Assembly: GCA_035288545.1 (NCBI GenBank)
Contig: DATEAB010000045.1
Coordinates: 1,329 to 65,328 of the forward strand
Direction of reading: 5' to 3'
From: an archaeon
GTDB lineage: Archaea > Aenigmatarchaeota > Aenigmatarchaeia > CG10238-14 > SCSR01
DNA length: 64,000 bases
The position numbers were made by a program, and so were the translations under genes. Under the pieces are notes generated by a model. The model made no database searches, was not told the origin of the DNA, and saw only the letters and a list, made by a program, of their open reading frames with translations. Positions within the stretch are counted from its first letter, which is position 1. Each line of letters starts with the position of its first letter. Below, in pieces: positions 18,913 through 62,330 of this stretch.

Positions 18913-18920
18913 ATTTTAAG

Positions 18921-32918: not shown

Positions 32919-33031
32919 AAAATAAAATATCGATAATCCTACTTTCATGCATTTAAATTCTAAGAACTAATTTTTATCTAGGGTGTATAAAGATCATTTC
33001 AATCTGGGAAATTTTAAAAGTCGCTAAATAT

Positions 33032-33379: not shown

Positions 33380-33567
33380 CAAAAACTATGGATGGAGTCA
33401 GGTTTGGAAGAAGAGGTTTTGACTGGAGAAAATTGGCGTGGGCAGTTGCACTGGCGGCGTTGCTCGGTTTCATAACAGGATTATTCACAAATTTTCACGA
33501 GGTAAGTTGGGCTGTGTTTTTCATTATTTTGTATCTTGAATACAGATTGACAATGCGACGAATCTAA
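33364..33567 (+). CDS. Small membrane protein (hypothetical)
   Basis: 67 aa with two hydrophobic helices. Overlaps the previous ORF by 16 nt. Confidence 0.25.
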   Translation: MEEVVTKTMDGVRFGRRGFDWRKLAWAVALAALLGFITGLFTNFHEVSWAVFFIILYLEYRLTMRRI

Positions 33568-33616
33568 AACATTTATATAGGAAAAAACCAAAATTAATTT
33601 ATCAAATTAGAGGGTT

Positions 33617-34315: not shown

Positions 34316-34380
34316 TTTAAAATTTTTCTTTGAAATTTTAAAATAGTTAAATTTATTTTCTAATTTTTCCAATAAATTAC

Positions 34381-35193: not shown

Positions 35194-35384
35194 ACTATCT
35201 ACTTCTCTACAATAACGCTTAAAAGGCATCTTCTACAAATTAATAATATAAAACGTTGTACAACAAATTAAACAACAACATTAATCAATAACGTTAATCA
35301 ACAACATTGTCCTTTGTCCAGAAGTGGTAAGAACTGCGAGCAGCAACGTTTGAGTAAAAGTAGAAATAGCGAGCAGCATTTGGA

Positions 35385-35642
35385 ATGAACGACGAGAACC
35401 ACTTCAAGGAAAGGATAGAGGAAATTTTAGCGAAGCATCCAGAAGGTTTATCTATAGCCGAAATTTCTCGACTTCTTGGCGCGCATAGACACACAGTTAC
35501 CAAATATATCCAATTTCTAATGGGTGCTGGAGTAATTTATCAACGCGATCTCGGCACTGTGAAATTGCATTACTTAGCAAGCAAACTCCCCGAGAAAGAA
35601 AAGCTGCTTCTTGAAAAATTAAACAGGCGGGGTAAAAAATGA
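35385..35642 (+). CDS. Small winged-HTH transcriptional regulator
   Basis: 85 aa. LSIAEISRLLGAHRHTVTKYIQFLMGAGVIYQRDLGTVKLHY is an HTH plus wing. Stop overlaps the start of the giant gene (ATGA). Confidence 0.6.
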   Translation: MNDENHFKERIEEILAKHPEGLSIAEISRLLGAHRHTVTKYIQFLMGAGVIYQRDLGTVKLHYLASKLPEKEKLLLEKLNRRGKK

Positions 35643-38600
35643 AAGTTAATAAAATTATTGCTAATAGAATTATTCTTCTTGCTGCAGTCTTCATCTCATT
35701 TTCATTAATGGGAATTTTTGTTAGTTTAATTCTCTTTGCCGAACCTGCTAAAGCAGAAGTAAGAGTTTGGAGATACAATGCTACTAATGCAAGTCTTTTT
35801 TCCGTGTTTAATAAAAGTGATGATGACACGACAACTCCACCTGCTTGGACTTCAGGATGGGACGGATCAAACGTTAGTGCTAGTTATTATGCAAACGTTT
35901 TAGGTGCTCAAGGCACTGGTATTAACGTTACTTCAGGTGGTCAGAATGACGAACCTTGGGTGAGATTTAATGTAACTATCATTCAAAACAAGTCGCAAAT
36001 TGTTTGGGTGCATGTCTCATTGACGCAGAGGAAAAATTCTTTGGCAGATGGAGGCGAAGATTGCACTTATATTATGGCTAATTATACTTCCTCTGGAGGT
36101 ACGGGACAGTGGTTTAAATTTGCCTCCGATGTCACAGGCATAACAGATACACAAAGATCCTTTAATCTTTCACGTCTGACTGACTCTGATCAGTTTGAAA
36201 ATATTACGGATGGTTATGCAACAGGAAAAAATCTACAAGTCGGTAATCTTGTAATAAGAGCAAACGGTATTAATGAAGATGCTGATGAAGGATGTGTTGT
36301 TACAAACGCTAGCGTACATGTTGGATATGACGACACTGCGCCGATATGGAGCAATGCAACGAACAATTTCACGTACGCCTATCCGAGCATAAAAACTGTT
36401 GCTGCCATGAGAGGTGAACTTATTAACATTTCTGCAAACGTGACCGATAACTACGGCGTGTTTACAGCATGGCTTTTGACAAACGAAACTGGTGGAGACA
36501 GAAACTACACGTACGACCAGCTTGCAAATTCTTCAAACTACACGATAAGAATTTTGGGTGGAGGGTCGATAATAGACCAAGCTCATAACACAACTACTGA
36601 AGGTGCGATGGTTAACTGGACTTGGCAAAACATGACAGGCGCCCCACGTGCAATCAAATGGCATATTTTTGTTAACGACACAGCAAACAACACGAACGGA
36701 ACTACTAACGGCGCGAGCGGAATCGCCGATATAGGAAACTTCACGATGTGGGGATGGGCAAACGTTACTCCTCCTAACTGGCTAAGTTCACAAATGGTGC
36801 CTGCGTCTGCAACTCCAGGCAATGTAGTTTACATACAAGTCAATGTGAGTGACGTGAACTTGACATGGCTAGAGCCAATAAATAGTTACAACGTAACTTT
36901 CTTTTACCGCCAAGAACCAGGAAATTATGTTTCACTTGGAGCCAACTGGACAAATTCTTCAGGAATTGCTGGATTTTACTGGGACACTACTGGCTTGTCA
37001 GGTGGAAGATATTTCCCTATGGCAAACATAACTCACAATGCAACTCTTTTCTACAACACAACTTATGTTCACAATAGCACAAACGGGACTATCGATCTTG
37101 CGGCAGCAGCTGTTGTTAACTACGGTAATGGTACGCTTCAAGTAGGCGTCAGCTCGAGTACAGATAGAGCACAAACTGTGAAAAGAGCACCGATCATCAA
37201 TCTTGTACAGAATCCGATAACCGCCCAAATAGTTGGCCTTTTCAAGTCATTAACAAATGCAATAAACGCCCTGACAAGCATACCTGCAATTTTTGCGCCT
37301 CTAAGACTTTCAATCATATCACCAATTTTGTCCACTCCAATTTCTAACTTTTTCACACAAGTGAAATCAATAGCTCAAGCCATAACTTCAAATTTCGTTT
37401 CTTCAAATCTCGGATATATTTCAAGATCAATAGCAAACGCAATAACAACTTCTCCTTTAACTGCAAGAATAGTTTCCTTAATAAAAATTATAACATCTCC
37501 ATTTGTTTTTGCATTTCAAACCATTGCTGGAAAAGTTTTGCAATTTCAAACATCACTCACATTAAGCGTGACGTCAACCGCTTCAAGAATATTTACAGGA
37601 GTCAGACCGATATCGAATGCAATTACATTTTCTACAATAACTGCCAGAATAACGAATTTCGGCAGAAGCCTGATTAACGCGTTATCATTTAACACAATTG
37701 CAACAAGAACTGCATCGTTCTTCAGAACAATCTCTCAGCCATTTACATTTACTACTCAAGTAACGGGCGTGTTCGCGCAGGGCGTTCAAGTTATTAACAG
37801 AGCTGTGGAACTGGCACTTTCAATAACCAATACAGCAACAAGAATTTTCACAGCGGTAACATTTCCAACACAGCAGCTTTCTTTCACAACATTAGTGCAG
37901 AGAATAACATTGCTAAACAAAGCTTTAACCAACACACTTTCATTTAACGCTCTAGCAATTAGATCAGCAACGTTTCTAAGAATTGCATCTCAATCATCCA
38001 CCTTCTTAACAAACGTTACAACTGCAATAACTATACTCACGTCACGAGTTGCTACTTTAACGATTTCTATGATAAACACAGCAACAAGAATTTTCACAGC
38101 GGTAACATTTCCAACACAGCAGCTTTCTTTCACAACATTAGTGCAGAGAATAACATTGCTAAACAAAGCTTTAACTAACGCAATATCATTTAACACAATT
38201 TCTTCCAGAATTGCGATATTTTCTCGTCAAGTTTCCCAACCCTTTGTTTTCAGTTTCGATCTTTTCACTAGAGTAATTGTTGGAGGAATTGCAGAAAGAA
38301 CTGCTGCTTTGCAAATATCATTAAGTAATTCGGCATCAGCTGTTTTAACTGCAGCACGTTTTCCAACATCAGCAATAACTACAAACACAATAGTATTAAG
38401 AACGCAACTTCTTTTCAAAGCACTTTCACAAACTCTAAACTTCTCAACAATATCGGCAAGAATACTCTCAACAACGAGAACAGTCTTCACAAACTTAACA
38501 TTCTTAACTTCGAGCATTAGGACAAGAATAGTACCAAGAGTAACAACTGCAGCGATTACGTTCTCTAACGCAATTGAAAAATCATTATTATTTGTAAGAC

Positions 38601-40153
38601 CGATAACAGCGCAAATAACTTTTGCTCAAAATGCAATAAAGCAACTTTCCTTCTTTAGAACAATCACTCAAACTATTAATTTAAATGACTTGGTTATAAG
38701 AAGTCAGCCATTTTTGAGAATTGTCACAGGAACTTTCAGATTTAATTTCGGAGCAACTGCTGTAAATCAAACTGGAACCACCACTACCACAACATCCTCT
38801 GCTGGTCCAGGCCCAGCACCAAGTGCAGGCAGTGGAGCAGGCAGTGGAGCAGGCGGTGGTGCAGCCGCTGCCCCAGGAATTCCTATCTCGATACTAGCAC
38901 CACCACCGTCATTCATTCCAACCCCAACGGTTGCAATTGACTTTACACAAATAGAAGTGCTGCAGGAAGTAGTTCCGGATCAAGCTCAAAACATATCGTT
39001 TGAAATTAAGAACAAAGTCAACACGACTCTGGGCAATGTTACTGTCACTTTCAGTGGAGTGCCTGAAGATTGGATTAAAGAAAAACTTGTTGGCAAGAGT
39101 CTTAATCCAAATGAAAAAACAGAATTCGAAATCCCCGTATCGCCATCTCGAGGCACAGGGAGTGGGGATTATCGTGTGGATATTAGTGTAAAAGCCGGAG
39201 GAGTCGTCGATAAAGGATTTTTCATAATTCGTGTCAAACCTAACGCAGGAGAAACCAACGCACCTTCTGTGACAAGGTCAGTTGTGGTGAACAGTGAGGA
39301 GAAAAAGACAACCTTCACATTAAATGTTGTAAATGTGAAAGGAACAGACACAGTAGAAGTGCAAGAAGATATACCAAAAACAATTGCGAACAGCACAAAG
39401 GAAATATTTTTTGACACTCCGCCGACAAAGATAATAAAGGACGATCCGATTGTCGAATGGCAACTCAAAAATTTCAAGAAAGGAGAGAGCAGGATCATCA
39501 AATATTCTGTTCAAAAAATTTTGGTAGATTACGCCCCGTATGTTTACTTCCCATTGAAGCAATTTAGCATATCTTCCAAATCAACATTAGAAAACTTCAA
39601 GTTGCTACTGTTTGACATTCCACCCTTCTATTCGGGACATGCGTCAATTGTTACGTTAAGAATTGAAAACTCAGATTCAAAGTCCCACAACTTCAGCTTC
39701 GCAATGGGACTTCCGGAAAAATGGAGCGTACAGCCGCAGCAGATAAACGAAATTATTGGTGACAACGAGCAAAGGGAATACAAGCTCTCTGTTTATGCTC
39801 CTTCGAGCGAACCTTCTGGAATTCGCATCATTCAGGCTCAATATGCCTGGGATGATTCAGCTGTAATAAGAGAGTATAGTGTGATTGTTTCACAAATAAT
39901 TTCATTTGACACCATAATCTACATCACCATTGTAATAATTGTAGTATCGGCAGCATATTTTGCAATAAAATCCTATATATCTTATAGAGGAACTCCAATG
40001 GAAACCTTACGAAAACTGAGAGCAATAGTAAAAAGCAGGACACCGATTCATCTAGCGCCTCATGAGCATTCCAAACAATACAGTGGCATTTTTTACGACG
40101 CGCTGTATCATTCAAAACATCTGTCGAAAAACAAAAAGGAGAATAAGTTATGA
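35639..40153 (+). CDS. Giant cell-surface protein (1504 aa) with N-terminal signal/TM, N-glycosylation sequon-rich ectodomain, internal tandem repeats, Gly/Ala/Pro linker and C-terminal TM anchor
   Basis: N-terminus MKVNKIIANRIILLAAVFISFSLMGIFVSLILFAEPAKA. Degenerate ~35-40-aa repeats span about aa 520-1010, including two exact 100-nt DNA copies. Linker GPGPAPSAGSGAGSGAGGGAAAAPG. C-terminal TM IIYITIVIIVVSAAYFAIKSYI. Confidence 0.6.
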   Translation: MKVNKIIANRIILLAAVFISFSLMGIFVSLILFAEPAKAEVRVWRYNATNASLFSVFNKSDDDTTTPPAWTSGWDGSNVSASYYANVLGAQGTGINVTSGGQNDEPWVRFNVTIIQNKSQIVWVHVSLTQRKNSLADGGEDCTYIMANYTSSGGTGQWFKFASDVTGITDTQRSFNLSRLTDSDQFENITDGYATGKNLQVGNLVIRANGINEDADEGCVVTNASVHVGYDDTAPIWSNATNNFTYAYPSIKTVAAMRGELINISANVTDNYGVFTAWLLTNETGGDRNYTYDQLANSSNYTIRILGGGSIIDQAHNTTTEGAMVNWTWQNMTGAPRAIKWHIFVNDTANNTNGTTNGASGIADIGNFTMWGWANVTPPNWLSSQMVPASATPGNVVYIQVNVSDVNLTWLEPINSYNVTFFYRQEPGNYVSLGANWTNSSGIAGFYWDTTGLSGGRYFPMANITHNATLFYNTTYVHNSTNGTIDLAAAAVVNYGNGTLQVGVSSSTDRAQTVKRAPIINLVQNPITAQIVGLFKSLTNAINALTSIPAIFAPLRLSIISPILSTPISNFFTQVKSIAQAITSNFVSSNLGYISRSIANAITTSPLTARIVSLIKIITSPFVFAFQTIAGKVLQFQTSLTLSVTSTASRIFTGVRPISNAITFSTITARITNFGRSLINALSFNTIATRTASFFRTISQPFTFTTQVTGVFAQGVQVINRAVELALSITNTATRIFTAVTFPTQQLSFTTLVQRITLLNKALTNTLSFNALAIRSATFLRIASQSSTFLTNVTTAITILTSRVATLTISMINTATRIFTAVTFPTQQLSFTTLVQRITLLNKALTNAISFNTISSRIAIFSRQVSQPFVFSFDLFTRVIVGGIAERTAALQISLSNSASAVLTAARFPTSAITTNTIVLRTQLLFKALSQTLNFSTISARILSTTRTVFTNLTFLTSSIRTRIVPRVTTAAITFSNAIEKSLLFVRPITAQITFAQNAIKQLSFFRTITQTINLNDLVIRSQPFLRIVTGTFRFNFGATAVNQTGTTTTTTSSAGPGPAPSAGSGAGSGAGGGAAAAPGIPISILAPPPSFIPTPTVAIDFTQIEVLQEVVPDQAQNISFEIKNKVNTTLGNVTVTFSGVPEDWIKEKLVGKSLNPNEKTEFEIPVSPSRGTGSGDYRVDISVKAGGVVDKGFFIIRVKPNAGETNAPSVTRSVVVNSEEKKTTFTLNVVNVKGTDTVEVQEDIPKTIANSTKEIFFDTPPTKIIKDDPIVEWQLKNFKKGESRIIKYSVQKILVDYAPYVYFPLKQFSISSKSTLENFKLLLFDIPPFYSGHASIVTLRIENSDSKSHNFSFAMGLPEKWSVQPQQINEIIGDNEQREYKLSVYAPSSEPSGIRIIQAQYAWDDSAVIREYSVIVSQIISFDTIIYITIVIIVVSAAYFAIKSYISYRGTPMETLRKLRAIVKSRTPIHLAPHEHSKQYSGIFYDALYHSKHLSKNKKENKL
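37200..38700 (+). repeat. Intragenic tandem repeat array (degenerate ~105-125-nt units; two 100-nt copies identical at 37829 and 38078)
   Basis: The string aatacagcaacaagaattttcacagcggtaacatttccaacacagcagctttctttcacaacattagtgcagagaataacattgctaaacaaagctttaac occurs twice, 249 nt apart. Flanking units share the protein pattern ...T(A/I)(T/S)RI..F.R.(I/V)SQPF.F... Confidence 0.7.
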
Positions 40154-41400
40154 GAGCTAGAAGTATTGCAATAATTTCGTTGATTTTAATTGCAATTTTG
40201 GTTTCAGCACTTTCAGATGTGTTTACTGTAAGCGCGCAAGAGAAGCTAGCCGAAATTTACACTTTAGCCTACGAGCCAGAAAAACCGGTCGTTCTTGAAA
40301 GTATTCAGTTTACAGTTGGGGTGAAGAACAATGAAAATCAATTACGAAATTACAGACTGGAACTCATAATAACGAAAGATGGAATATTCAAGGATTCGCA
40401 AGAGTTCACATTTAATTTGAAACCTGAATCAAGTACAGCATTTTCTCCAAACTATATTCCTGACGACATAAATGATTTTGATCTTATCACAAAACTTTAT
40501 GACGCAACCACTTCTCAACTTTTAGATTTGAAAACTTTGAAATTCAGAGTGGTTAGCGAAATAGGGCCATTTGATTTGGAAGTAAACGTTCCGTCTAAAT
40601 TTATAAAAGCAAACTCCATTGCACCGGTAATTCTAACTCTTTCAAATAAGGGAATCAATGGAACAGATATAAACGTCGAGATTGAATTGAAATGTGTTAA
40701 TCAAAGCAATATTAGAAGTTCATTCTTTTTCTTCATTCCAACGACCTCTGTGGAAACAAAAATAACTCCCATTCAAACTTGTGATGAGGAAGGTCCACAC
40801 GAAATATCTGCGAGCATAATACTTTTCAACAAGACATGGATATCTTCGGCCAATCAATTTTTCCTTAATAAAACTTATCAGGAACTTCTTTTTGATGTTC
40901 CAACTAAGATTAACATTAATGCCGGTGAGTCAAAAATATTCGACGTGCAAATTCGCAACACGGGAACGACCACTCTTCATAACCTAAGACTTCTCGTTTC
41001 AATAATCTCAAATAACTGGATAAAAATTTCTCCGCAAGCAGTCACCCAGTTGAATCCCGGAGAATTTTCAATATTTGTCGTAAACATAACAGTGCCAAAA
41101 GATGCATCATCACAAGAATTTCCAGTTGGAATAGCAGCGGCCGCCGACGAGTTGCTGACAAGAAAGGAGACAACTTTTAATGTGGCGGCTCTATCGGCCC
41201 TCCCGCAGATATTAAATATTTCTAGTAAAGAAACTATTCCAAAAATTGTTCTGCCAAGAATTTTAACCGATAATGCAACTTACATTCTTATCGCAGTTTT
41301 AATTTTGGTTGGCATTTTTGCATTAATAAAAACGATCGAGGTACAGCGTAGAAGCAGAAGGGAGGAAGTCGTTAGAAAGTTGAAGGATCTGATTGGTTAG
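40150..41400 (+). CDS. Secreted protein with C-terminal TM anchor (hypothetical cell-surface protein)
   Basis: 416 aa. Signal MRARSIAIISLILIAILVSALS, C-terminal TM YILIAVLILVGIFALI, then a basic tail. 4-nt overlap with the giant gene. Confidence 0.45.
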   Translation: MRARSIAIISLILIAILVSALSDVFTVSAQEKLAEIYTLAYEPEKPVVLESIQFTVGVKNNENQLRNYRLELIITKDGIFKDSQEFTFNLKPESSTAFSPNYIPDDINDFDLITKLYDATTSQLLDLKTLKFRVVSEIGPFDLEVNVPSKFIKANSIAPVILTLSNKGINGTDINVEIELKCVNQSNIRSSFFFFIPTTSVETKITPIQTCDEEGPHEISASIILFNKTWISSANQFFLNKTYQELLFDVPTKININAGESKIFDVQIRNTGTTTLHNLRLLVSIISNNWIKISPQAVTQLNPGEFSIFVVNITVPKDASSQEFPVGIAAAADELLTRKETTFNVAALSALPQILNISSKETIPKIVLPRILTDNATYILIAVLILVGIFALIKTIEVQRRSRREEVVRKLKDLIG

Positions 41401-41511
41401 TCGATTAGCTGATCAGTTGCTTGATTAGCTGATCGATTAGTTGAATTTAATTGCAGCAAAACAAAATTTAATTATGAAAAGTTTGCAGGAAAAGAAACGG
41501 GGGTAGGATGA

Positions 41512-42537
41512 GTGGGAAAGGTAATCGGAGTTTTTTCAGGAAAAGGTGGAGTTGGAAAGACGACACTCGTTGCTAATTTGGCAACTTCTCTGACGAAGAA
41601 CTTTAATAAGAAAGTCGTTGTCGTTGACAGTAATTTTTCGACAAGCCATCTCGGATTGCATTTTGGTTTGTATGAAGAGCCGAAAGTAACTCTCAGGGAC
41701 GTTATTCTTGAAAATGAGTCGTTGGTTTCAGCATTTTACATTCATCCATCCACAGGAGTGCGATTGATTCCCGCGCCCATCAGTGGTAGTCTTGACGAAG
41801 TAGTCGTGAATGGACTCGCAAATGTGGTCGAACAGCTCAAAGAAGACAACGACATTGTTATTCTTGATGCTGCGCCAGGATTAGGAAGAGAAGTTATTAC
41901 TACGATGAAATCGATTGATGAAGCCTTGATTATTGCGACTCCTGATATTCCTTCCATCACGGATGCACTCAAAACAACAAATCTAATAAAAAAAGTTAAC
42001 GACAAAATAAATATTTCTGGTGTGATAGTGAATAGAGTCAGAAATGAAAAGTATGAGCTGACGAGAAAGGAAATAGAATCTGCGTGCAATACAAATGTTG
42101 TAACTCACATACCAGAAGATTCAAAAGTTCCTGAGTCGATTGCAAAAGGGGTACCACTTATAGAGCTCCATCCCTATTCAAAAGCGAGTGTTGCTTTTGG
42201 CAGACTCGCAGCAGCAATGGTTGGTCAGACTTATGAGCCCAGAAGTTTTGTTTACGCTTTAATGAAACTTTTAGGAATTGTAAAAGAAGGGTATGTTAAG
42301 ATACCGCCGAGAATTGAAAGGCAACAGAGAGTAAAGAAAGTGCGATTGAAAAAAGACGAAGAAGAGAAACAAACAAAACAACAAAAAGAAAAAGGAAAAG
42401 GGAGAGAAAAGGAAGATGAAATGGAAGACGTAAAAAAATTACATGAAGAAGTTGAAGAATCAATAAAGAGTGACATAAAGAAAAGATTAGCGATGAAGAT
42501 AAAAGAAAAATTGAAGGAAAAGGGAGTTGGGGAATGA
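41512..42537 (+). CDS. MinD/ParA-family ATPase (TadZ/CpaE-like) with K/E-rich C-terminal tail
   Basis: GTG start 8 nt after GGGGGTAGGA. Deviant Walker A GKGGVGKTT at residues 10-18. ...IVILDAAPGLG is the Walker B region. Last ~70 aa are K/E-rich and low-complexity. Confidence 0.7.
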   Translation: MGKVIGVFSGKGGVGKTTLVANLATSLTKNFNKKVVVVDSNFSTSHLGLHFGLYEEPKVTLRDVILENESLVSAFYIHPSTGVRLIPAPISGSLDEVVVNGLANVVEQLKEDNDIVILDAAPGLGREVITTMKSIDEALIIATPDIPSITDALKTTNLIKKVNDKINISGVIVNRVRNEKYELTRKEIESACNTNVVTHIPEDSKVPESIAKGVPLIELHPYSKASVAFGRLAAAMVGQTYEPRSFVYALMKLLGIVKEGYVKIPPRIERQQRVKKVRLKKDEEEKQTKQQKEKGKGREKEDEMEDVKKLHEEVEESIKSDIKKRLAMKIKEKLKEKGVGE

Positions 42538-42927
42538 ATGACGCTTAAACAATCTGAGAAGGATGAACTTATAGAAGAACTTTTGGATGCAGTCGCCGAG
42601 CAGGTTTCCGATTTGCTTGCAAGCTCTAGCTCAGTAAAAATTAGGGGAATAAATTCTTATACTGATAAATATCTCGACAATATAATCGAAATTAAACAGA
42701 GAATTTCTGCACTAGAGACGAAAACAGAAAAAAGACTTGAAGACTTTGAAATAATTGTTAACGATTTGGAGAAACAACTTAATGAAAAGTTTCATTCGGT
42801 ACATAACGAAAGCGAGCAAGAGTACTTCAGACTCACAGATCAAATAGCGAATTTACGTGCGGCGGCCATAAAGTTAAGCAATGAGATAAAGGAAATAAAA
42901 ATTCAACTCGCTCTGCGAAGGACTTAA
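42538..42927 (+). CDS. Coiled-coil protein (hypothetical)
   Basis: 129 aa, heptad-rich (LEKQLNEK..., IKEIKIQL). Begins 1 nt after the stop of the ATPase gene. Confidence 0.35.
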   Translation: MTLKQSEKDELIEELLDAVAEQVSDLLASSSSVKIRGINSYTDKYLDNIIEIKQRISALETKTEKRLEDFEIIVNDLEKQLNEKFHSVHNESEQEYFRLTDQIANLRAAAIKLSNEIKEIKIQLALRRT

Positions 42928-42969
42928 TAAAATATTTTTACTTTATAATGCAAAACTAATTCTAATATT

Positions 42970-43377
42970 ATGAAAATTGAGAAGGCGCAAGCAGCTCTTG
43001 AATACTTGATGATAACTTCGATCGCGCTCGCAGTAATAATTCCAGTTTTTTACTACTCCTTCTTCTACTCCAGCGGTTCTGTGAATTATTCCCAGGCTCT
43101 GGACGCTGTCAACGCGATTGGAAAAGGAGCTGATTACGTTTATTCACTTGGCGTCGGGAGCAGGACAAGAATCTTGGTTTCAATCCCCAGCAACGTGATT
43201 AATTACACAATTTCAACCAAAGCTATTACATATCAAATACGCTCATCATCGGGCGCAACTTCATCGATCACAGCATTCACAAAGGCAAACATAACTGGAA
43301 CCCTTCCAACAAATCCAGGCAATTATTACATTTCCCTAAACATGACAGAACAAGGTGTTGTAATATCAGTGTCGTGA
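42970..43377 (+). CDS. Type IV pilin-like protein with class III signal peptide
   Basis: MKIEKAQAALEYLMITSIALAVIIPVFYY: basic N-region, A-Q, conserved E at +5, then a hydrophobic helix. This is the archaeal prepilin peptidase substrate pattern (QxALEYLM). Confidence 0.6.
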   Translation: MKIEKAQAALEYLMITSIALAVIIPVFYYSFFYSSGSVNYSQALDAVNAIGKGADYVYSLGVGSRTRILVSIPSNVINYTISTKAITYQIRSSSGATSSITAFTKANITGTLPTNPGNYYISLNMTEQGVVISVS

Positions 43378-48392: not shown

Positions 48393-49298
48393 TTGGCGCT
48401 GATAAAAAATATTCCATTCGTACCTTTTTCAATGTACCAAGCAGTCAGAATATCTAGAAAAATTGGCTTGATAGGAACAGGGAGTCGTGCGTCAAAACTT
48501 TTCCCAAAACTTTCGCTCTATCTTTTGCAGACAGGAATTTCATTCGAGGACAGGGAATACACGGCGATAGCAATTCTCGCGGCAATGATATGGTTCATAA
48601 TTCCTGCATCAATTTTCACAGTCCTCTACTTTTTCGTTTTGCTTCCTTCAAACTTCATTACAATTGCTCTGCTTTCATCATTCGGCCTTTCCTTCCTTTC
48701 ATTCTTTTACGTCATTTTGTTTCCGCAAGTTGTCATCACGAGAAGAATCAAAGATCTTGAGAAAAATCTTCTCTTCGCTCTTCGTCATTTGCTAATCCAA
48801 GTCCGTTCAGGAATTCCACTGTTCGACTCGATGGTTTCTGTCTCGAAAGCAGGATACGGTCTTATCTCAGAAGAGTTCGAATTCGCAGTCAAACAAATCA
48901 GCACAGGAGTTCGGGACATCGACGCGCTGGAAGAAATCGCGCTGAAGAATCCTTCTCTTTATTTCCGCCGCTCGATGTGGCAGATAACGAACGCAATACG
49001 CTCAGGAGCGGACATCGCGAACACACTCGATACCATTATTGGCAATCTTGCTAATGAGCAGAGAATTCTTGTCCGTCGTTACGGCTCGCAGCTAAACCCC
49101 CTTGCATTCATGTACATGATGATGGGAATTATTTTGCCAAGCCTCGGAATATCTCTGATGATAAGTCTCTCCTCATTTTCTGGACTCAAGGTCGAAAGAA
49201 TTTTCTTCTGGGCAATTTTAATTTTCCTTATATTTTTCAAGTTCAATTTCCTAGGTATCGTCAAAAGCCGCAGACCATCAGTGGAGGTTTACGTCTGA
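48393..49298 (+). CDS. Pilus platform membrane protein with a single T2SS-F domain (TadB-like)
   Basis: 301 aa, three TM segments. The cytoplasmic region SLYFRRSMWQITNAIRSGADIANTLDTIIGNLANEQR is typical of GspF/TadB/FlaJ domains. Confidence 0.65.
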   Translation: MALIKNIPFVPFSMYQAVRISRKIGLIGTGSRASKLFPKLSLYLLQTGISFEDREYTAIAILAAMIWFIIPASIFTVLYFFVLLPSNFITIALLSSFGLSFLSFFYVILFPQVVITRRIKDLEKNLLFALRHLLIQVRSGIPLFDSMVSVSKAGYGLISEEFEFAVKQISTGVRDIDALEEIALKNPSLYFRRSMWQITNAIRSGADIANTLDTIIGNLANEQRILVRRYGSQLNPLAFMYMMMGIILPSLGISLMISLSSFSGLKVERIFFWAILIFLIFFKFNFLGIVKSRRPSVEVYV

Positions 49299-50284
49299 TG
49301 TATCAATTCATCTATGCAATAAGCCCGAAGGGGTACAAGAAGTGGATTGACAGGTATCTTCAATACTGCGACTTCAAAATATCCACGATACGCCTGATAG
49401 GATTCTTCTTTCTGTTTGGCCTTGGCCTGAGTTTTTCGGTCAGCTTCATTTTGTTTTTGCTCAACTATGTCGACACTCTTTTATTTTTTGTAACTTGGCT
49501 GGGAATTTTTGTCACATTCGAAATTGCTACTCATGGGATTTTGGTATTCATTGCTGACAGTCGCGCTAACTTTGTAGAAGAAATACTTCCTGACGCTCTT
49601 CAAATCATTTCTGCGAACTTGCGATCGGGTCTCACACCAGACAAGGCGATACTGACATCTGCTCGACCAGAGTTCGGACCTCTCGAGAAGGAAATGAAAT
49701 TCGTTGCCAAGGAAACACTTTCAGGGCGTCCGCTCGAGGAGTCTCTCAAAGAAATCGCGAAGAAAATAAATTCCAAAATTTTAGATAAGACAATTACACT
49801 TTTGATTGAAGGAATGGCAAAGGGTGGAAGCTTAACACAGCTCCTAGACAGCATCTCAGAAGATATTCGCCAAATAAAAATCCTGCGTCGCGAAATAAAA
49901 TCATATGTAATGATGTACGGCATTTTCATATTCTTCGCAATAGTCATCGGCGCACCTCTTCTATATTCGGTCTCTACGTTTCTTGTCGAAACTATGAGCA
50001 GGTTCGGCAGTAGCATCGAGCTTCAGCAACTCTTCGAATCACAGTCATCCCTTCCAATATTCAAATCCACTGTGACAGATGTCACCCCTGACTTTTTGAT
50101 ATTGTATTCAATTCTTTCCATCTCCGTCACGGCGATTTTCGGAAGTTTGCTGATAGGTCTAATACAGGAAGGAAGCGAGAAGGCAGGAATGAAGTTCATA
50201 CCTTTGCTGCTTCCTCTTTCTTTGGCAGTGTTTTTCATCGCCCGCATTGCTCTTCAGAATTCATTCGGAACGCTAATTGTTTAA
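49298..50284 (+). CDS. Pilus platform membrane protein with a single T2SS-F domain (TadC-like)
   Basis: 328 aa. 1-nt overlap (TGATG) with the upstream gene. ISANLRSGLTPDKAILTSARPEFGPLEKEMKFVAKE is the T2SS-F domain cytoplasmic motif. Confidence 0.65.
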   Translation: MYQFIYAISPKGYKKWIDRYLQYCDFKISTIRLIGFFFLFGLGLSFSVSFILFLLNYVDTLLFFVTWLGIFVTFEIATHGILVFIADSRANFVEEILPDALQIISANLRSGLTPDKAILTSARPEFGPLEKEMKFVAKETLSGRPLEESLKEIAKKINSKILDKTITLLIEGMAKGGSLTQLLDSISEDIRQIKILRREIKSYVMMYGIFIFFAIVIGAPLLYSVSTFLVETMSRFGSSIELQQLFESQSSLPIFKSTVTDVTPDFLILYSILSISVTAIFGSLLIGLIQEGSEKAGMKFIPLLLPLSLAVFFIARIALQNSFGTLIV

Positions 50285-50409
50285 TTGGTTAGCTGAGGAA
50301 AAGATGCTGATGTGCAGTTGTACTGCAGTTGTAGTGCAATTGTGCAATCGTACAAAGTTGTATAATTTATATGCCCCTAAAACCAATTCTAAATTAAAGA
50401 GGATGTTTA

Positions 50410-50877
50410 ATGAGACTATTCGGGAAATTAAAAGGTCAAACGGCCCTTGAGTACTTGATGACGTATGGATGGGCCATCCTGATAGTTATAATAGTCGTCG
50501 GTGCGTTGTTCGCACTGGGACTTACAAAACCATGTCGATGGGTCGGAACTCAAGTTCGTGAATTCGCCGATTTCAGAGTAGAAAATCCGCGAGCAACAAC
50601 TTCTCAATTGGCATTCGACTTATCTAGCCTAAAGCCACAGACAGTAAATCTAACATCAGTAACAGTTTCTGGTGACTTGAGTGGAAACACCGTTTCGCCA
50701 ACTCTACCAGCAAGCCAGGGAACGACAGCAGTAAGATACACAGTCACGACAAGTTCTGGTTCACTAGTGACAAATGATTGCTACAATGCTGATGTTGTTA
50801 TAACTTACAACTTAGCAACAGCAGGTGGACAACAATCATTCAACACGACTGGTAAAATATCAGGAATAATATCGTAA
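50410..50877 (+). CDS. Type IV pilin (probable major pilin) with class III signal peptide
   Basis: MRLFGKLKGQTALEYLMTYGWAILIVIIVVGALFALG gives the canonical KG/QxALEYLM pattern. 155 aa with a Thr/Ser-rich globular part. Confidence 0.65.
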   Translation: MRLFGKLKGQTALEYLMTYGWAILIVIIVVGALFALGLTKPCRWVGTQVREFADFRVENPRATTSQLAFDLSSLKPQTVNLTSVTVSGDLSGNTVSPTLPASQGTTAVRYTVTTSSGSLVTNDCYNADVVITYNLATAGGQQSFNTTGKISGIIS

Positions 50878-50987
50878 GACGATAACAATCAACTTTGAGA
50901 ATTTTTTGCTTTCCATAACTAACTTCTTCAATTTTTCTATTGTTATTAGTAAATTTTTGAGAATCTTTATTTAAAAATAAAAAATCG

Positions 50988-51119
50988 TGCAGGGGGCGAG
51001 ATTCGAACTCACGAACGGACTAACCGACAGCGTTTCTTATTTCATCTTTTCATCAAAGCTCAAATTTCTGTTTTGAAAACTTGAGCGCTGCCCCTTTGAC
51101 CAGACTTGGGTACCCCTGC
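50988..51119 (-). tRNA. tRNA-Leu(CAA), class II, with a ~46-nt intron at the canonical 37/38 position
   Basis: Minus-strand read: GCAGGGG-TA-CCCAAGTCTGGTCAAAGGGG-CAGCG-CUCAAG[46 nt]A-CGCTG-TCGGTTAGTCCGTTC (variable arm)-GTGAGTTCGAATCTCGC-CCCCTGC-A. The anticodon loop reads CU-CAA-G before the intron. Confidence 0.72.
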
Positions 51120-51873
51120 GTGAATCATAGTAAGATTCTGGGTTTATAAAACCCTTTAAAATTTTAATTCTTTCATTTAAGGTAGTTTTTGGTGGAACAT
51201 AACCGAACTTTTTCCATATAGATACTTTTGTTTGATGGACAGGATTTTTTGTGCCGATTAAATTTAACCATTTTTGAATGGAACTTTTTTCATTAATTTC
51301 AAAAATATAAACAGGATTTTTATCATTTTTCCAATTAAAAGGACTTGGATTGGAATGTTTTATTCCAATATTCTTAGATAAAAACTTAATATCATCAATA
51401 AGTCTTTTCGAAATACATGCTATTCGTATTCTTGGTCTTACATGAAAACTACTTTTTCTTTTTGGATTCGGATCCCTCATAAAATAAATCGAACCATCTG
51501 TATCAAAAATTCCTCTTAACAATGGAATAAAATATTTTTTATTTCTTTTAAACTTGTCTGGAATGAAGGTTCGCGATGCTTTTTCGCCTTGTAACATTCC
51601 TAGTTCTAAAAATTGTTTAATTATTTCTTTTTTATATATTCCAACCCCATAAGTTCTCCAATATAAAAAAGATCTCGGCTGTAAATCTATTTTCAATTCT
51701 TTTCTAATCAAAGGTGCTAGATGATTATCATAATATTTCTTATCTTCTGTTAAGTTACCTGTAATAAAAAGATTTTTTCCATTAGATTGTATCCACCCAT
51801 CTCCAATAATAGATCCACAAATTTCGCTAATTCCTCTTGTGATTTTCATATTTTTATTTTGCACAGTATTCAA
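51037..51873 (-). CDS. LAGLIDADG homing endonuclease (double-motif, I-DmoI-like)
   Basis: 278 aa, very AT-rich. Two motifs, ICGSIIGDGWI and LLRGIFDTDGSI. The ORF continues on the same strand through the 5' exon of tRNA-Leu, and its stop lies inside the tRNA intron. Confidence 0.7.
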   Translation of the reverse strand: MNTVQNKNMKITRGISEICGSIIGDGWIQSNGKNLFITGNLTEDKKYYDNHLAPLIRKELKIDLQPRSFLYWRTYGVGIYKKEIIKQFLELGMLQGEKASRTFIPDKFKRNKKYFIPLLRGIFDTDGSIYFMRDPNPKRKSSFHVRPRIRIACISKRLIDDIKFLSKNIGIKHSNPSPFNWKNDKNPVYIFEINEKSSIQKWLNLIGTKNPVHQTKVSIWKKFGYVPPKTTLNERIKILKGFINPESYYDSRRGTQVWSKGQRSSFQNRNLSFDEKMK

Positions 51874-51917
51874 GATAAGTTTATCGTTAAAAATTTAAGA
51901 AAAAGACTTTTCACAAT

Positions 51918-52646
51918 CTATTGTTTCTGCTCTGTTTTGACTTCAGCATTCATTTCATCAGAGCTCATCTGATCGAGCTCTTCCTTCAACTTGTCAATCT
52001 GCGAACGCAAGTCAGTAATCATTCCGTGCAATCCTTCGTCTCCGCCAGATTCTTCAGTCCATTGCTGCTCTTCATTCTCAGGCTCAACCAATCCTGTCGG
52101 TCTAACGAATTCAGAATCAAGATCGACAATGCGCGCCTCGACTTTCTGCACAGCCGCTTCCAGCACTCGCAAGTTCTCTGCTTTCACCCTCTCCATCTCG
52201 CTGAACATCGCGAACGCGTTTTTCACTTTCGTCACGGTCTGCTTCAAATCAGAAATTGTGTGCAAAATATTCTTGTAACGGTCGAGCTTCACAAAAAGAG
52301 GAACGTCAGGAATTTCTCCGCCAGATTTTTTCGTTGCTGGTGCTTGCGTCGTGGCTGTCCATGTGGTTGCTTTCGAGATGTTTGGCGTTTGCAATGCTTC
52401 CACTTTCGGCAACGGCGAGGGCATTGAAAATTGCTGATTCGCCCATTCGTTCGGATTTTCGGAAAGAGCCGCCGTTTCTTTAGTCCACTGATCAATCGCT
52501 GAAGGAGGCTCCATTTTAGAAACTGTCACGTCGGAAGGTTCAATCGCTTCCTTAATCTGCTGTATGTCCTCCCACTCTTTGCTCGCTTCTTCCTTCTTTC
52601 TACCAAAAAAGCCCATGTTATCAATAATTATTTTCTTTTTCAGCAA
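51918..52646 (-). CDS. Hypothetical protein with C-terminal coiled coil and acidic tail
   Basis: 242 aa. Heptad-rich C-terminal 80 aa (RVLEAAVQKVEARIVDLD...ITDLRSQIDKLKEELDQMSS). No confident family assignment. Confidence 0.35.
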   Translation of the reverse strand: MLKKKIIIDNMGFFGRKKEEASKEWEDIQQIKEAIEPSDVTVSKMEPPSAIDQWTKETAALSENPNEWANQQFSMPSPLPKVEALQTPNISKATTWTATTQAPATKKSGGEIPDVPLFVKLDRYKNILHTISDLKQTVTKVKNAFAMFSEMERVKAENLRVLEAAVQKVEARIVDLDSEFVRPTGLVEPENEEQQWTEESGGDEGLHGMITDLRSQIDKLKEELDQMSSDEMNAEVKTEQKQ

Positions 52647-53675: not shown

Positions 53676-53781
53676 AGCCTCGGAAGGGATTTGAACCCTT
53701 GACCTTCTGCTTACGAAGCAGTTGAGCTCACAATTTTTTCCATTTTTTGTGATTTGCTCTACCGAACTGAGCTACCGAGGC
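53676..53781 (-). tRNA. tRNA-Thr(CGT) with a ~31-nt insertion between the D stem and the anticodon stem
   Basis: Minus-strand read: GCCTCGG-TA-GCTCAGTTCGGTAGAGC-[AAATCACAAAAAATGGAAAAAATTGTGAGCTC]-A-ACTGC-TTCGTAA-GCAGA-AGGTC-AAGGGTTCAAATCCCTT-CCGAGGC-T. The insert carries an internal inverted repeat TCACAA/TTGTGA and ends with a GAGCTC duplication of the D-stem junction. Confidence 0.62.
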
Positions 53782-62209: not shown

Positions 62210-62330
62210 AGTCCCGTCGTCTAGTGGCCAAGGACATGAGGCTTTGGACTTTTGGTCACAAAGCTCTGATTGCGAGATGAAGCAGAAAGGAAGATCCCTC
62301 AAAACGTCGGTTCGAATCCGGCCGGGACTA
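62210..62330 (+). tRNA. tRNA-Gln(TTG) with a ~47-nt insertion in the anticodon loop
   Basis: AGTCCCG-TC-GTCTAGTGGCCAAGGAC-A-TGAGG-CTTTGGA-[47 nt]-CCTCA-AAAC-GTCGGTTCGAATCCGGC-CGGGACT-A. Perfect anticodon stem TGAGG/CCTCA. The loop CUUUGGA is the canonical Gln(UUG) loop. Confidence 0.65.

What the first reader, a model, noticed from the sequence alone, without database searches (positions are those of the whole stretch)
50988..51873. LAGLIDADG homing-endonuclease ORF reads on the same strand through the 5' exon of tRNA-Leu(CAA) and terminates inside the tRNA intron
The 278-aa double-motif LAGLIDADG gene (very AT-rich) overlaps the first ~83 nt of the tRNA, and its stop codon (51037-51039) lies within the 46-nt anticodon-loop intron. 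This suggests either co-transcription with tRNA-mediated 3' processing or a homing element that has inserted against a tRNA gene. Free-standing HEs abutting intron-bearing tRNAs could be relevant to intron mobility in this lineage.
Basis: seen in the sequence. Interest (0 to 1): 0.65.

Follow-up and report, generated by a model that had tools for sequence, protein, structure and literature searches.

The report
Homing endonuclease gene wedged against tRNA-Leu
A selfish DNA-cutting-enzyme gene sits between the promoter and the start of a leucine tRNA gene in a tiny (DPANN) archaeon; its run-on into the tRNA is incidental, but its relatives lie at the edges of specific tRNA genes far more often than chance, which I found described nowhere.

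Summary
A 270-aa (ATG 51849; 278 aa from TTG 51873) double-motif LAGLIDADG ORF on the minus strand runs 83 nt into an intron-bearing tRNA-Leu(CAA) (51119-50988) and stops in the 46-nt intron.

The overlap is incidental. All three frames are stop-free through the GC-rich 5' exon, and all first stop in the AT-rich intron. In homologues the tail differs in length (0-27 aa) and frame, and it is predicted disordered.

What is conserved is the juxtaposition. All six independent close homologues with context abut tRNA-Leu(CAA). Of 37 species representatives carrying the same intron type (most titled Aenigmatarchaeota), 35 lack the gene. Empty sites put a ~750-780-nt cassette between the tRNA's TATA box and +1, and it carries a second TATA-like element in its last codons.

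In the wider family (≥2,000 cluster representatives), endonuclease clades track particular tRNAs (Leu, Arg, Thr, Ser, Ile, Met). Several loci keep broken resident tRNA-Leu fragments beside a complete, different tRNA-Leu linked to the endonuclease.

Best reading: a free-standing homing endonuclease specialised on a tRNA gene edge. The canonical intron does not depend on it. The cleavage site and the transcription pattern remain untested.

The parts
51037..51849 (-). LAGLIDADG homing-endonuclease ORF from the ATG (270 aa). The mechanical ORF starts at TTG 51873 (278 aa). The conserved, folded part is about 51849-51124.
   Evidence: ORF list. Pfam LAGLIDADG_3. Homologues start at this ATG. AF2 pLDDT is high up to residue ~250 of the 278-aa ORF. 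Foldseek best hits are an intein-associated homing endonuclease (TliVMA intein), I-Tsp061I, PI-PfuI and I-DmoI.
51037..51119 (-). Read-through tail of the ORF (last ~27 codons plus stop) encoded by the tRNA 5' exon and intron. Not a conserved part of the protein.
   Evidence: Tails differ in length and frame among homologues. pLDDT is below 50 for residues 252-278. All three frames are open across the exon.
51793..51810 (-). LAGLIDADG motif 1 (IIGDGW), with an invariant acidic residue.
   Evidence: G24, D25 and G26 are invariant in the alignment. Coordinates.
51490..51507 (-). LAGLIDADG motif 2 (FDTDGS), with an invariant acidic residue.
   Evidence: F123, D124, T125, D126 and G127 are invariant. 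Coordinates.
51887..51896 (-). Upstream BRE/TATA-like element AAATTTTTAA. It lies 21 nt after the stop of the upstream gene, resembles the native tRNA-Leu promoter of endonuclease-free relatives, and is now placed to drive the endonuclease gene.
   Evidence: PWM score 7.4 against an endonuclease-minus median of 6.9. Similar to the L058 empty-site promoter.
51859..51874 (-). Conserved 5' element of the cassette, CTTGAATACTGTGCAA, between the TATA and the ATG. It contains the spurious TTG 'start'.
   Evidence: Conserved as CTTGAATATTGTACAA in L001, L003, L004 and L011.
51142..51154 (-). TATA-like element GGGTTTTATAAAC embedded in the codons for K-G-F-I-N. It ends 26 nt before tRNA +1, the native promoter distance.
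   Evidence: PWM score 5.8; only 0.7% of positions in the ORF score as high. The family-wide enrichment of such elements is shown.
51080..51119 (-). tRNA-Leu(CAA) 5' exon (acceptor, D arm, anticodon stem 5' strand, CUCAAG).
   Evidence: ARAGORN in intron mode, own scanner, fold.
51034..51079 (-). 46-nt intron at 37/38 in the anticodon loop (ARAGORN places it at 51036-51081; an AG/AA repeat makes the boundary ambiguous). It contains an anticodon complement UUUGAGC followed by UUGA and AGAUGA boxes.
   Evidence: The same intron type occurs in 37 tRNA-Leu(CAA) loci of archaeal species representatives, most titled Aenigmatarchaeota.
50988..51033 (-). tRNA-Leu(CAA) 3' exon (anticodon stem 3' strand, long variable arm, T arm, acceptor, discriminator A). 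No encoded CCA.
50973..50985 (-). T-rich run (TTTTTTATTTTT) just after the tRNA. Likely the shared transcription terminator.
   Evidence: Sequence. That oligo-T acts as an archaeal terminator is general knowledge, so the role is inferred.
51918..52646 (-). Conserved upstream neighbour gene (242 aa, no Pfam family). In endonuclease-free relatives its stop lies only 28-51 nt before tRNA-Leu +1.

Best explanation
The ORF is a free-standing (not intron- or intein-borne) monomeric LAGLIDADG homing-endonuclease gene. It belongs to a compact selfish cassette of about 750-780 nt lodged in the chromosome of a probable Aenigmatarchaeota (DPANN) archaeon. The cassette occupies the short spacer between the BRE/TATA box of the tRNA-Leu(CAA) gene and the tRNA's first nucleotide.

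**Shown**
- The endonuclease is intact and keeps both catalytic motifs.
- Its gene is present or absent at exactly this site among related genomes.
- Its conserved coding sequence runs to within 0-10 nt of tRNA +1.
- The ORF has no stop of its own, so it runs into the tRNA until a stop turns up, here in the AT-rich intron.

**Inferred**
- A native-type tRNA TATA box left upstream of the cassette (in some loci a cassette-borne TATA 23-29 nt before the ATG) transcribes the endonuclease as a leaderless or short-leader mRNA.
- A second TATA-like element built into the last codons (..L-K-G-F-I-N..) restarts transcription at the tRNA, so the host keeps its only tRNA-Leu(CAA). Any read-through transcript could also yield tRNA through normal end-processing.
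- The enzyme cuts endonuclease-free tRNA-Leu(CAA) loci, either at the spacer/+1 junction or inside the tRNA near the anticodon. Repair from an occupied allele then copies the cassette in, sometimes together with the linked tRNA.

The 27-residue tRNA-encoded tail has no function.
For: **Enzyme**
- Pfam LAGLIDADG_3.
- Invariant GDG and FDTDG motifs.
- AF2 model with pLDDT 84 and pTM 0.83. It matches an intein-associated homing endonuclease (TliVMA intein), I-Tsp061I, PI-PfuI and I-DmoI and gives weak sequence hits to PI-PfuI and I-Tsp061I.

**Tail is incidental**
- Homologues end at ..ILKGxINPxSFY. Read-through is 0 aa (L003), 5 aa (L004, L005), 14 aa (L011), 17 aa (L001) and 27 aa (window), in three different frames.
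- Residues 252-278 have pLDDT below 50.
- All frames are open across the exon.

**Conserved linkage**
- L001/2, L003, L004, L005-7, L011 and L025 all abut tRNA-Leu(CAA).

**Empty sites**
- 35 of 37 loci with the same tRNA and intron lack the gene. Most of these records are titled Aenigmatarchaeota.
- The gap from the upstream gene's stop to tRNA +1 is 28-51 nt in 13 empty loci, against 798 nt here.
- L003 and L052 share 88-93% identical flanks. In L003 a 777-nt cassette replaces the 23-nt TATA-to-+1 spacer, with the left junction right after the native TATA.
- L005 against L013, L039 and L051 gives the same picture.

**Promoters**
- The 33 empty-site promoters give the motif AACTTTTATA, ending at -25..-29 in most of them.
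- The window's internal element scores 5.8 at -26 (top 0.7% of the ORF) and its upstream element 7.4.
- In 19 of 36 endonuclease>tRNA loci the element at -22..-32 is in the top 10% of same-ORF windows.
- Most ORFs contain 2-6 T5-T6 runs.

**Family-wide pattern**
- 26 of 66 endonuclease ORFs have an abutting same-strand tRNA, against 6 of 202 other ORFs (p=5e-13).
- Endonuclease clades match tRNA identity and arrangement.

**Displacement of resident tRNA genes**
- Orphan tRNA-Leu fragments lie beside a complete, different tRNA-Leu in L004/L064, L067, L069 and L095.

**Composition**
- GC is 0.28-0.31 in the cassette against about 0.43 for the host.
Against: - No cleavage assay or transcript data exist, so nuclease activity, target site and transcription units are all inferred.
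- The internal TATA-like element is strong only in the window. It is weak in L003, L004 and L011, and AT-rich coding sequence yields such matches fairly easily.
- No very close endonuclease-free relative of the window's own genome was found. The best, L047, matches at the DNA level mainly in the tRNA (82% over 154 nt). The window's insertion junction is therefore inferred from more distant empty sites.
- The tRNA exons of the L003 (occupied) and L052 (empty) alleles are identical, which leaves unclear how the occupied allele escapes cutting if the target lies in the tRNA body.
- Vertical inheritance with repeated loss could produce part of the patchy distribution.
- L001/L063 and L004/L064 may be re-assemblies of the same samples, so they are not fully independent.
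Confidence: 0.75

Rival explanations
1. The overlap is functional. Endonuclease and tRNA form one obligatory co-transcript. The tRNA serves as the 3' processing signal of the mRNA: RNase P cleavage at tRNA +1 releases the tRNA and trims the mRNA. Because that removes the stop codon, it may throttle endonuclease expression.
For: - The two genes are on the same strand with no stop or terminator between them, and the only strong T-run follows the tRNA.
- A native-type TATA lies upstream of the endonuclease gene.
- In five of six close loci the stop lies inside the tRNA.
Against: - The position and frame of the stop are not conserved, and L003 stops 8 nt before the tRNA.
- A TATA-like element sits at the native distance from +1 within the last codons, and this is enriched family-wide.
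- T5-T6 runs inside most ORFs would attenuate read-through.
- Other clades place the endonuclease downstream of, or convergent with, the tRNA.
Confidence: 0.2
2. Collaborative homing with the anticodon-loop intron. The free-standing endonuclease cuts intron-less tRNA-Leu(CAA) at the 37/38 intron insertion site, and the adjacent intron and endonuclease spread together, as for F-CphI and the psbA intron of cyanophages.
For: - The endonuclease lies about 40 bp from the intron site.
- Breakpoints of orphan resident tRNA fragments cluster at the anticodon loop and intron in L004, L069 and L095.
- The precedent is in PMC6083498.
Against: - The same intron is present in 35 endonuclease-free species representatives.
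- A sister endonuclease clade abuts intron-less 84-nt tRNA-Leu(CAA) genes.
- No intron-less tRNA-Leu(CAA) allele was seen among the Aenigmatarchaeota loci, but the scan pattern required the intron, so such alleles could not have been retrieved.
Confidence: 0.08
3. A domesticated LAGLIDADG protein acting as a DNA-binding regulator or maturation factor, as WhiA or the mitochondrial maturases do. It would control tRNA-Leu(CAA) transcription from within its promoter region and be inherited vertically.
For: - Its position in the promoter region is fixed.
- There is a conserved element between the TATA and the ATG.
- The fold also matches the LAGLIDADG domain of WhiA (ranks 42-48).
- The ORFs are intact across many lineages.
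Against: - It is absent from 35 of 37 related species representatives.
- It is present or absent between genomes with ~90% identical flanks.
- Both catalytic acidic residues are invariant.
- Its composition looks foreign.
- Broken resident tRNA genes lie next to it.
Confidence: 0.07
4. Chance juxtaposition or an annotation artefact: an unrelated ORF that merely happens to lie next to a tRNA.
For: A stop-free run through a GC-rich tRNA exon is expected by chance.
Against: - Six of six close homologues lie at the same place.
- The family-wide enrichment has p=5e-13.
- Endonuclease clades match their tRNA partners.
Confidence: 0.01

Closest known systems
Free-standing homing endonucleases of T-even phages, especially SegB in the T4 tRNA gene cluster (PMC2330249)
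   Same: - The endonuclease gene stands alone, not inside an intron or intein, next to tRNA genes.
- It shows presence/absence polymorphism between related genomes.
- The expected mechanism is the same: cleavage of the endonuclease-free locus, then gene conversion that carries the endonuclease gene and flanking markers.
   Different: - SegB is a GIY-YIG enzyme of a phage. This one is a LAGLIDADG enzyme in a cellular archaeal chromosome.
- Here the gene occupies the TATA-to-+1 spacer of a single essential tRNA gene, overlaps the tRNA promoter and 5' end, and comes in clades each tied to one tRNA species.
- Cleavage has been demonstrated for SegB and not here.
Archaeal intron-encoded LAGLIDADG endonucleases (I-DmoI, I-Tsp061I, I-PorI) in rRNA bulge-helix-bulge introns
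   Same: - Same monomeric two-domain LAGLIDADG fold (Foldseek E 6e-9 to 1e-6).
- Archaeal host.
- Target is a stable-RNA gene.
   Different: - Sequence identity is only 16-18%.
- There are about 50 extra C-terminal residues (helices up to residue ~250).
- The ORF is not inside the intron. It starts 730 nt upstream of the tRNA, and only its unconserved tail reaches the intron.
F-CphI / psbA intron 'collaborative homing' in cyanophage S-PM2 (PMC6083498)
   Same: A free-standing endonuclease gene lies directly beside an intron-containing gene. In principle the intron could interrupt the recognition site.
   Different: - The canonical tRNA-Leu intron is widespread without the endonuclease, and some clades abut intron-less tRNAs.
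- Only non-canonical introns at 30-32 show a tentative link.
- The enzyme family differs (Endo VII-like against LAGLIDADG).
Mitochondrial endonuclease-gene insertions that bring a replacement copy of part of the host gene and leave the resident end as a pseudogene (e.g. Allomyces atp6; recalled from memory, not checked here)
   Same: In L004, L067, L069 and L095 a complete tRNA-Leu linked to the endonuclease sits beside orphaned fragments of a different, resident tRNA-Leu.
   Different: - The target is a tRNA gene in an archaeal chromosome.
- The window's own locus shows a clean insertion with no orphan fragments.

Membership tests
LAGLIDADG homing endonuclease (monomeric, two-motif) | Two LAGLIDADG motifs, each with a conserved acidic residue at the end of the motif helix | tested here: met
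   IIGDGW and FDTDGS are present. G24/D25/G26 and D124/T125/D126/G127 are invariant in 13 sequences.
LAGLIDADG homing endonuclease (monomeric, two-motif) | Profile match to a LAGLIDADG family | tested here: met
   Pfam PF14528 LAGLIDADG_3, E=8.8e-08, 32.7 bits against a cut-off of 22.5.
LAGLIDADG homing endonuclease (monomeric, two-motif) | Tandem alpha-beta-beta-alpha-beta-beta-alpha fold | tested here: met
   AF2 pLDDT 84, pTM 0.83. Foldseek matches the TliVMA intein endonuclease, I-Tsp061I, PI-PfuI, I-DmoI and I-SceI with probability 1.00.
LAGLIDADG homing endonuclease (monomeric, two-motif) | Site-specific double-strand cleavage of a long (about 20 bp) target | not testable with these tools
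   Needs recombinant protein and substrate DNA.
Mobile (homing) endonuclease gene | Presence/absence polymorphism at one defined site, with intact empty-site alleles in related genomes | tested here: met
   35 of 37 tRNA-Leu(CAA) loci are empty. L003 against L052 shows 88-93% identical flanks and a 777-nt cassette in place of a 23-nt spacer. L005 against L013/L039/L051 agrees.
Mobile (homing) endonuclease gene | The enzyme cleaves the empty site and not the occupied one | not testable with these tools
   The target site could not be deduced. The candidates are the spacer/+1 junction and the anticodon region.
Archaeal intron-encoded endonuclease (ORF inside a bulge-helix-bulge intron) | The ORF lies within the intron of the stable-RNA gene | tested here: not met
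   The ORF starts 730 nt upstream of tRNA +1. The intron is 46 nt and holds only the last 14 codons plus the stop. Endonuclease-free alleles carry the same intron.
Collaborative homing (free-standing endonuclease plus adjacent endonuclease-less intron) | The intron co-occurs with the endonuclease, and endonuclease-free alleles lack the intron | tested here: not met
   The canonical intron is present in 35 endonuclease-free loci, and intron-less tRNA-Leu(CAA) genes carry an endonuclease in a sister clade. For the extra intron at 31/32 there is only one matched pair, L003/L052.
Archaeal intron-containing tRNA-Leu(CAA) | Cloverleaf with 7-bp acceptor, T arm, long variable arm and anticodon CAA | tested here: met
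   ARAGORN in intron mode, own scanner, MFE fold at -42.5 kcal/mol with z=-3.1.
Archaeal intron-containing tRNA-Leu(CAA) | Canonical bulge-helix-bulge motif at the splice sites | tested here: inconclusive
   The MFE structure extends the anticodon stem by pairing GCUCAAGUUUU with AAAUUUGAGC and shows no canonical 3-4-3 motif. Relaxed motifs are known in archaea (general knowledge).

The most novel reading that the evidence does not exclude
This LAGLIDADG family would be a lineage of tRNA-gene parasites of small-genome archaea.
- Each clade cuts one particular tRNA gene.
- Each clade travels with its own promoter-compatible end and, at least sometimes, with a linked cut-resistant copy of that tRNA. 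This would be a natural 'cleave-and-rescue' arrangement that overwrites resident tRNA genes and leaves orphan halves.
- Non-canonical introns at positions 30-32 (and perhaps others) would be selected because they split the recognition site.

If so, endonuclease pressure would be one driver of the unusual abundance and odd positions of tRNA introns, and of horizontal replacement of tRNA genes, in these archaea.
Probability: 0.25. Interest if true: 0.85.

Novelty: new variant of a known kind. Interest (0 to 1): 0.62.

Why it matters
In archaea, homing endonucleases are known mainly from rRNA introns and inteins. Free-standing ones are a phage speciality.

This case is a chromosomal, free-standing LAGLIDADG gene sitting in the roughly 25-nt gap between a tRNA gene's TATA box and its first base, and the host apparently keeps the tRNA. 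It suggests a compact way for a selfish gene to exploit the most conserved, best-expressed loci of a reduced genome. It would borrow one promoter and carry a replacement promoter within its own last codons.

The family-wide match between endonuclease clade and tRNA partner, and the broken resident tRNA genes beside some copies, make three questions directly testable:
- how tRNA genes are exchanged between uncultivated archaea;
- whether endonuclease attack favours the gain of odd tRNA introns;
- whether these enzymes offer new natural specificities for 20-bp tRNA-gene targets.

For annotation, it explains a recurring 'ORF overlaps tRNA' conflict, and it shows that intron-bearing tRNAs here are missed by default tools.

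Tried and rejected

- Default ARAGORN and Rfam at gathering and at E-value thresholds do not report tRNA-Leu. Intron mode was needed.
- ARAGORN's anticodon calls for multi-intron tRNAs were wrong. L008-10/L080 were called 'Lys' or 'Gln' but read by eye as tRNA-Leu(CAA).
- A second 'tRNA-Leu' call in L001 (613-720) is another tRNA type with no long variable arm.

**Searches that gave little**
- Viral contigs gave only six weak partial relatives, so there is no evidence for a viral vector.
- Literature searches found no description of free-standing LAGLIDADG genes beside archaeal tRNA genes.
- NCBIfam gave nothing meaningful.

**Analyses that failed or were flawed**
- I tried to deduce the recognition site from junction alignments. 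The spacers are too variable, the exons of L003 and L052 are identical, and no answer came out.
- A +1-anchored promoter alignment was too blurred. A one-occurrence-per-sequence motif search was used instead.
- In the NJ tree the window's own protein was mistranslated through an off-by-one, so its branch should be ignored.
- No close endonuclease-free relative of the window's own genome was found.

**Idea considered and rejected**
- That the ORF sits in a second intron or in a split or permuted tRNA. The tRNA is complete and contiguous apart from the 46-nt intron.

**Idea only partly followed**
- That the intron is a C/D-box-like guide for wobble C34. The loci were retrieved with a pattern that already demanded the boxes, so they cannot test it.
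Full report
**1. The observation**

The minus strand carries an ORF at 51873..51037 (278 aa from TTG). Homologues and gene callers start at the ATG at 51849 (270 aa; P0001). The ORF matches Pfam LAGLIDADG_3 (E=8.8e-08). Its two motifs are IIGDGW (51793-51810) and FDTDGS (51490-51507).

Default ARAGORN and Rfam do not report a tRNA here. ARAGORN in intron mode finds tRNA-Leu(CAA) at c[50987,51119] with a 46-nt anticodon-loop intron. My own T-arm/acceptor scanner gives 50988-51119, and the precursor folds as a cloverleaf with a long variable arm.

- 5' exon: 51119-51080
- intron: 51079-51034 (boundary ambiguous by 2 nt)
- 3' exon: 51033-50988

The ORF overlaps the first 83 nt of the tRNA, and its TAA (51039-51037) lies in the intron. 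GC falls to 0.30 in 51-52 kb, against about 0.40-0.43 on either side.

**2. The tail is incidental**

All three reading frames are stop-free through the 40-nt GC-rich 5' exon. They first stop at tRNA nt 60, 67 and 83, all inside the AT-rich intron. Any ORF entering this tRNA from upstream would end in the intron.

In the alignment of 12 homologues (40-72% identity for all but the most distant), conservation ends at ..ILKGxINPxSFY. The DNA of their loci shows where each ORF stops:

| Locus | Stop position | Read-through tail |
|---|---|---|
| L003 | 8 nt before the tRNA | 0 aa |
| L004, L005 | 15 nt into the tRNA | 5 aa |
| L011 | 45 nt into the tRNA | 14 aa |
| L001 | 52 nt into the tRNA | 17 aa |
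| window | 83 nt into the tRNA | 27 aa |

Three different frames are used across these loci. The AlphaFold model (pLDDT 84, pTM 0.83) is confident up to about residue 250 and falls below 50 for residues 252-278. Foldseek places the fold with archaeal intron and intein LAGLIDADG enzymes: the TliVMA intein endonuclease, I-Tsp061I, PI-PfuI and I-DmoI.

**3. The juxtaposition is conserved**

Every close homologue with genomic context has its ORF end at or in the 5' end of a same-strand, intron-bearing tRNA-Leu(CAA). These are L001/L002, L003, L004, L005-7 and L011.

I scanned one genome per species for the intron's signature (CTCAAG..TTGAGYNTTGA..AGATGA). It returned 37 tRNA-Leu(CAA) loci from archaeal records, most of them titled Candidatus Aenigmatarchaeota. 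This, together with the archaeal SRP RNA in the window, places the window in that DPANN phylum.

Only two of the 37 carry an endonuclease at that position. One is L056, the same contig as L006. The other is L025, whose endonuclease is only 27% identical. The canonical intron is therefore common without the endonuclease.

**4. The insertion site**

The 242-aa gene upstream of the endonuclease (51918-52646) is the usual upstream neighbour of tRNA-Leu in this phylum. In 13 empty loci its stop lies 28-51 nt before tRNA +1. In the window the distance is 798 nt.

Empty-site promoters share a BRE/TATA motif (AACTTTTATA) ending at -25..-29 in most of them.

L003 (occupied) and L052 (empty) have 88-93% identical flanks and identical tRNA exons. 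In L003 a 777-nt cassette replaces the 23-nt spacer GTTAGAAAAATATTCTTCTACAT. The left junction lies directly after the native TATA (AATTTTATATTA) and the right junction at tRNA +1.

L005 compared with L013, L039 and L051 shows the same: the native GGTTTTTA stays upstream of the endonuclease gene.

In the window, the sequence after the upstream gene's stop (..GTCTTTTTCTTAAATTTTTAACGAT..) resembles the empty-site promoter of L058 and scores 7.4 on the promoter matrix.

The cassettes of six loci align from a TATA-like element plus a conserved CTTGAATATTGTACAA, 23-29 nt before the ATG, all the way to tRNA +1.

**5. Keeping the tRNA expressed (inference)**

The last conserved codons (L-K-G-F-I-N; GGGTTTTATAAAC, 51142-51154) form a TATA-like element ending 26 nt before tRNA +1. 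It scores 5.8, against an empty-site median of 6.9, and only 0.7% of positions in the ORF score as high.

The corresponding element is weaker in L001, L005, L003 and L011, and poor in L004. Across 36 endonuclease>tRNA loci of several clades, however, 19 have an element at -22..-32 that falls in the top 10% of windows from the same ORF.

Most of the ORFs contain 2-6 T5-T6 runs. These would weaken read-through from upstream.

I therefore favour two promoters: one, captured or cassette-borne, for the endonuclease, and one embedded in its last codons for the tRNA. Co-transcription may occur as well. None of this has been measured.

**6. The wider family**

A profile of the 13 sequences finds 202 cluster representatives at E≤1e-30 and 2,017 at E≤1e-10. 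The metagenome scan confirmed 425 relatives, and 80 loci were kept.

With a strict scanner, 26 of 66 endonuclease ORFs have a same-strand tRNA 5' end within -130..+70 nt of the ORF end, against 6 of 202 other ORFs (p=5e-13). ARAGORN adds more cases. In many of them the stop codon is the tRNA's own U8-A9-G10, read as TAG.

Reading the tRNAs by eye and building a tree shows clades tied to one partner and one arrangement:
- Leu(CAA) downstream, with or without introns;
- Leu(CAA) upstream;
- Leu(UAA);
- Arg(TCG);
- Thr(GGT), Ser and Trp;
- Ile;
- convergent Met.

This is what one expects if each clade recognises a particular tRNA gene. It also argues against the anticodon-loop intron being essential, because eight loci abut intron-less 84-nt tRNA-Leu(CAA) genes.

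**7. Signs that the tRNA body is attacked or replaced**

- **L004 and L064.** The endonuclease plus a complete tRNA-Leu (acceptor GCGGGAG, intron at 30/31) lies between a 15-nt 5' fragment (GCAGGGATAGCCAAG) and a 3' fragment (intron tail plus 3' exon ending TCCCTGCA) of a different tRNA-Leu. The two acceptor halves of those fragments are complementary to each other.
- **L095.** A complete multi-intron tRNA-Leu and the endonuclease are followed at once by a resident tRNA-Leu running from the anticodon loop to its 3' end.
- **L069 and L067.** Orphan 3' halves of a different acceptor type follow the endonuclease stop codon.

The breakpoints cluster around the anticodon loop and intron.

Twelve endonuclease-linked tRNA-Leu(CAA) genes carry a non-canonical intron at 30/31 or 31/32. 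None of the ~35 empty Aenigmatarchaeota alleles does. This comparison is not phylogenetically controlled. The window, L001, L005, L011 and L025 have only the canonical intron.

The target could therefore be the spacer/+1 junction, which the insertion itself destroys, or the anticodon region. I could not decide between them.

**8. Comparison with known systems**

- **Fold.** By fold it is a member of the monomeric LAGLIDADG endonucleases.
- **Not intron-encoded.** It is not an intron-encoded enzyme; this was tested and not met.
- **Closest analogue by lifestyle.** The closest are the free-standing endonucleases of T-even phages, notably SegB in the T4 tRNA cluster (PMC2330249).
- **Collaborative homing.** The F-CphI/psbA model (PMC6083498) does not fit the canonical intron.
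- **Precedent.** I found no description of free-standing LAGLIDADG genes at archaeal tRNA gene edges.

**9. Verdict**

The 'reads through the tRNA and stops in the intron' aspect is a by-product. The underlying element is a mobile, free-standing LAGLIDADG gene specialised on the promoter-proximal edge of tRNA-Leu(CAA), and it belongs to a sizeable family associated with tRNA genes.

I rate it a new variant of a known kind, with interest 0.62. The cleave-and-rescue and intron-immunity reading is the most novel one not excluded (probability about 0.25).

Noticed in passing
window 51034-51079 (-); also L001, L003, L005, L013-L058: The tRNA-Leu(CAA) intron has a conserved layout: an anticodon complement (UUGAGC), one nt, UUGA, 3-6 nt, AGAUGA, then NAUAAGAAA. 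The fifth nucleotide upstream of the UUGA box pairs with wobble C34. L004's intron has true CUGA and UGAUGA boxes. This looks like a half-size C/D-box-type guide for 2'-O-methylation of C34, as in the Haloferax tRNA-Trp intron (from memory). The loci were retrieved with a pattern that demanded these boxes, so the conservation is not an independent test.
   Followed up: partly
window 8504-8615 (-), 62210-62330 (+), 13852-13947 (+), 53676-53781 (-), 18920-19015 (-): Most other tRNA genes called in the window appear to carry introns. One (8504-8615) seems to have two, a 21-nt insert in the D-loop region and a 25-nt insert in the anticodon region. Default tRNA finders miss all of them. Rfam reports only two.
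   Followed up: partly
L003 5764-5795, compared with L052: The occupied allele has an extra 32-nt insert (CATTCTGAGAAACACTCTCGGGTGGAGCGAAA) at tRNA position 31/32 and a canonical intron 5 nt longer. The empty allele of a ~90% identical genome has neither. The endonuclease and the extra intron therefore differ together between these two alleles.
   Followed up: partly
L069 3748-3935; L095 1073-1225: These tRNA-Leu genes or fragments carry three or more inserts each, in the D loop, at 30-32, at 37/38, in the variable arm and in the T loop. That is an extreme intron load for a single tRNA gene.
   Followed up: no
Many family loci, e.g. L071, L072, L076, L077, L084, L085, L093, L127, L136: The endonuclease ORF ends exactly 9-10 nt into the tRNA. 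It uses the tRNA's conserved U8-A9-G10 as its TAG stop codon.
   Followed up: partly
window 21990-22262 (-): Archaeal SRP RNA (Rfam RF01857, 111.8 bits). This confirms an archaeal chromosome.
   Followed up: no
window 49298-50877 (+): A T2SSF-family membrane protein (49298-50284) is followed by a small protein whose N-terminus looks like a class III signal peptide, as in archaeal type IV pilins (50410-50877; my reading, Pfam finds nothing). They are convergent with the tRNA-Leu.
   Followed up: no
window 32000-43000 (+): A GC-poor stretch (0.34-0.40) encodes a 1,504-aa and a 416-aa protein with NPCBM_assoc/NEW3 domains, then a ParA/MinD-type ATPase. Genes with the same Pfam families lie downstream of the endonuclease locus in L001, which suggests conserved wider synteny.
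   Followed up: partly
window 51859-51874 (-); L001, L003, L004, L011: A conserved element CTTGAATATTGTACAA, containing the palindrome TTGTACAA, lies between the TATA and the endonuclease ATG. It could be an operator for autoregulation or part of the cassette end. Its function is unknown.
   Followed up: no
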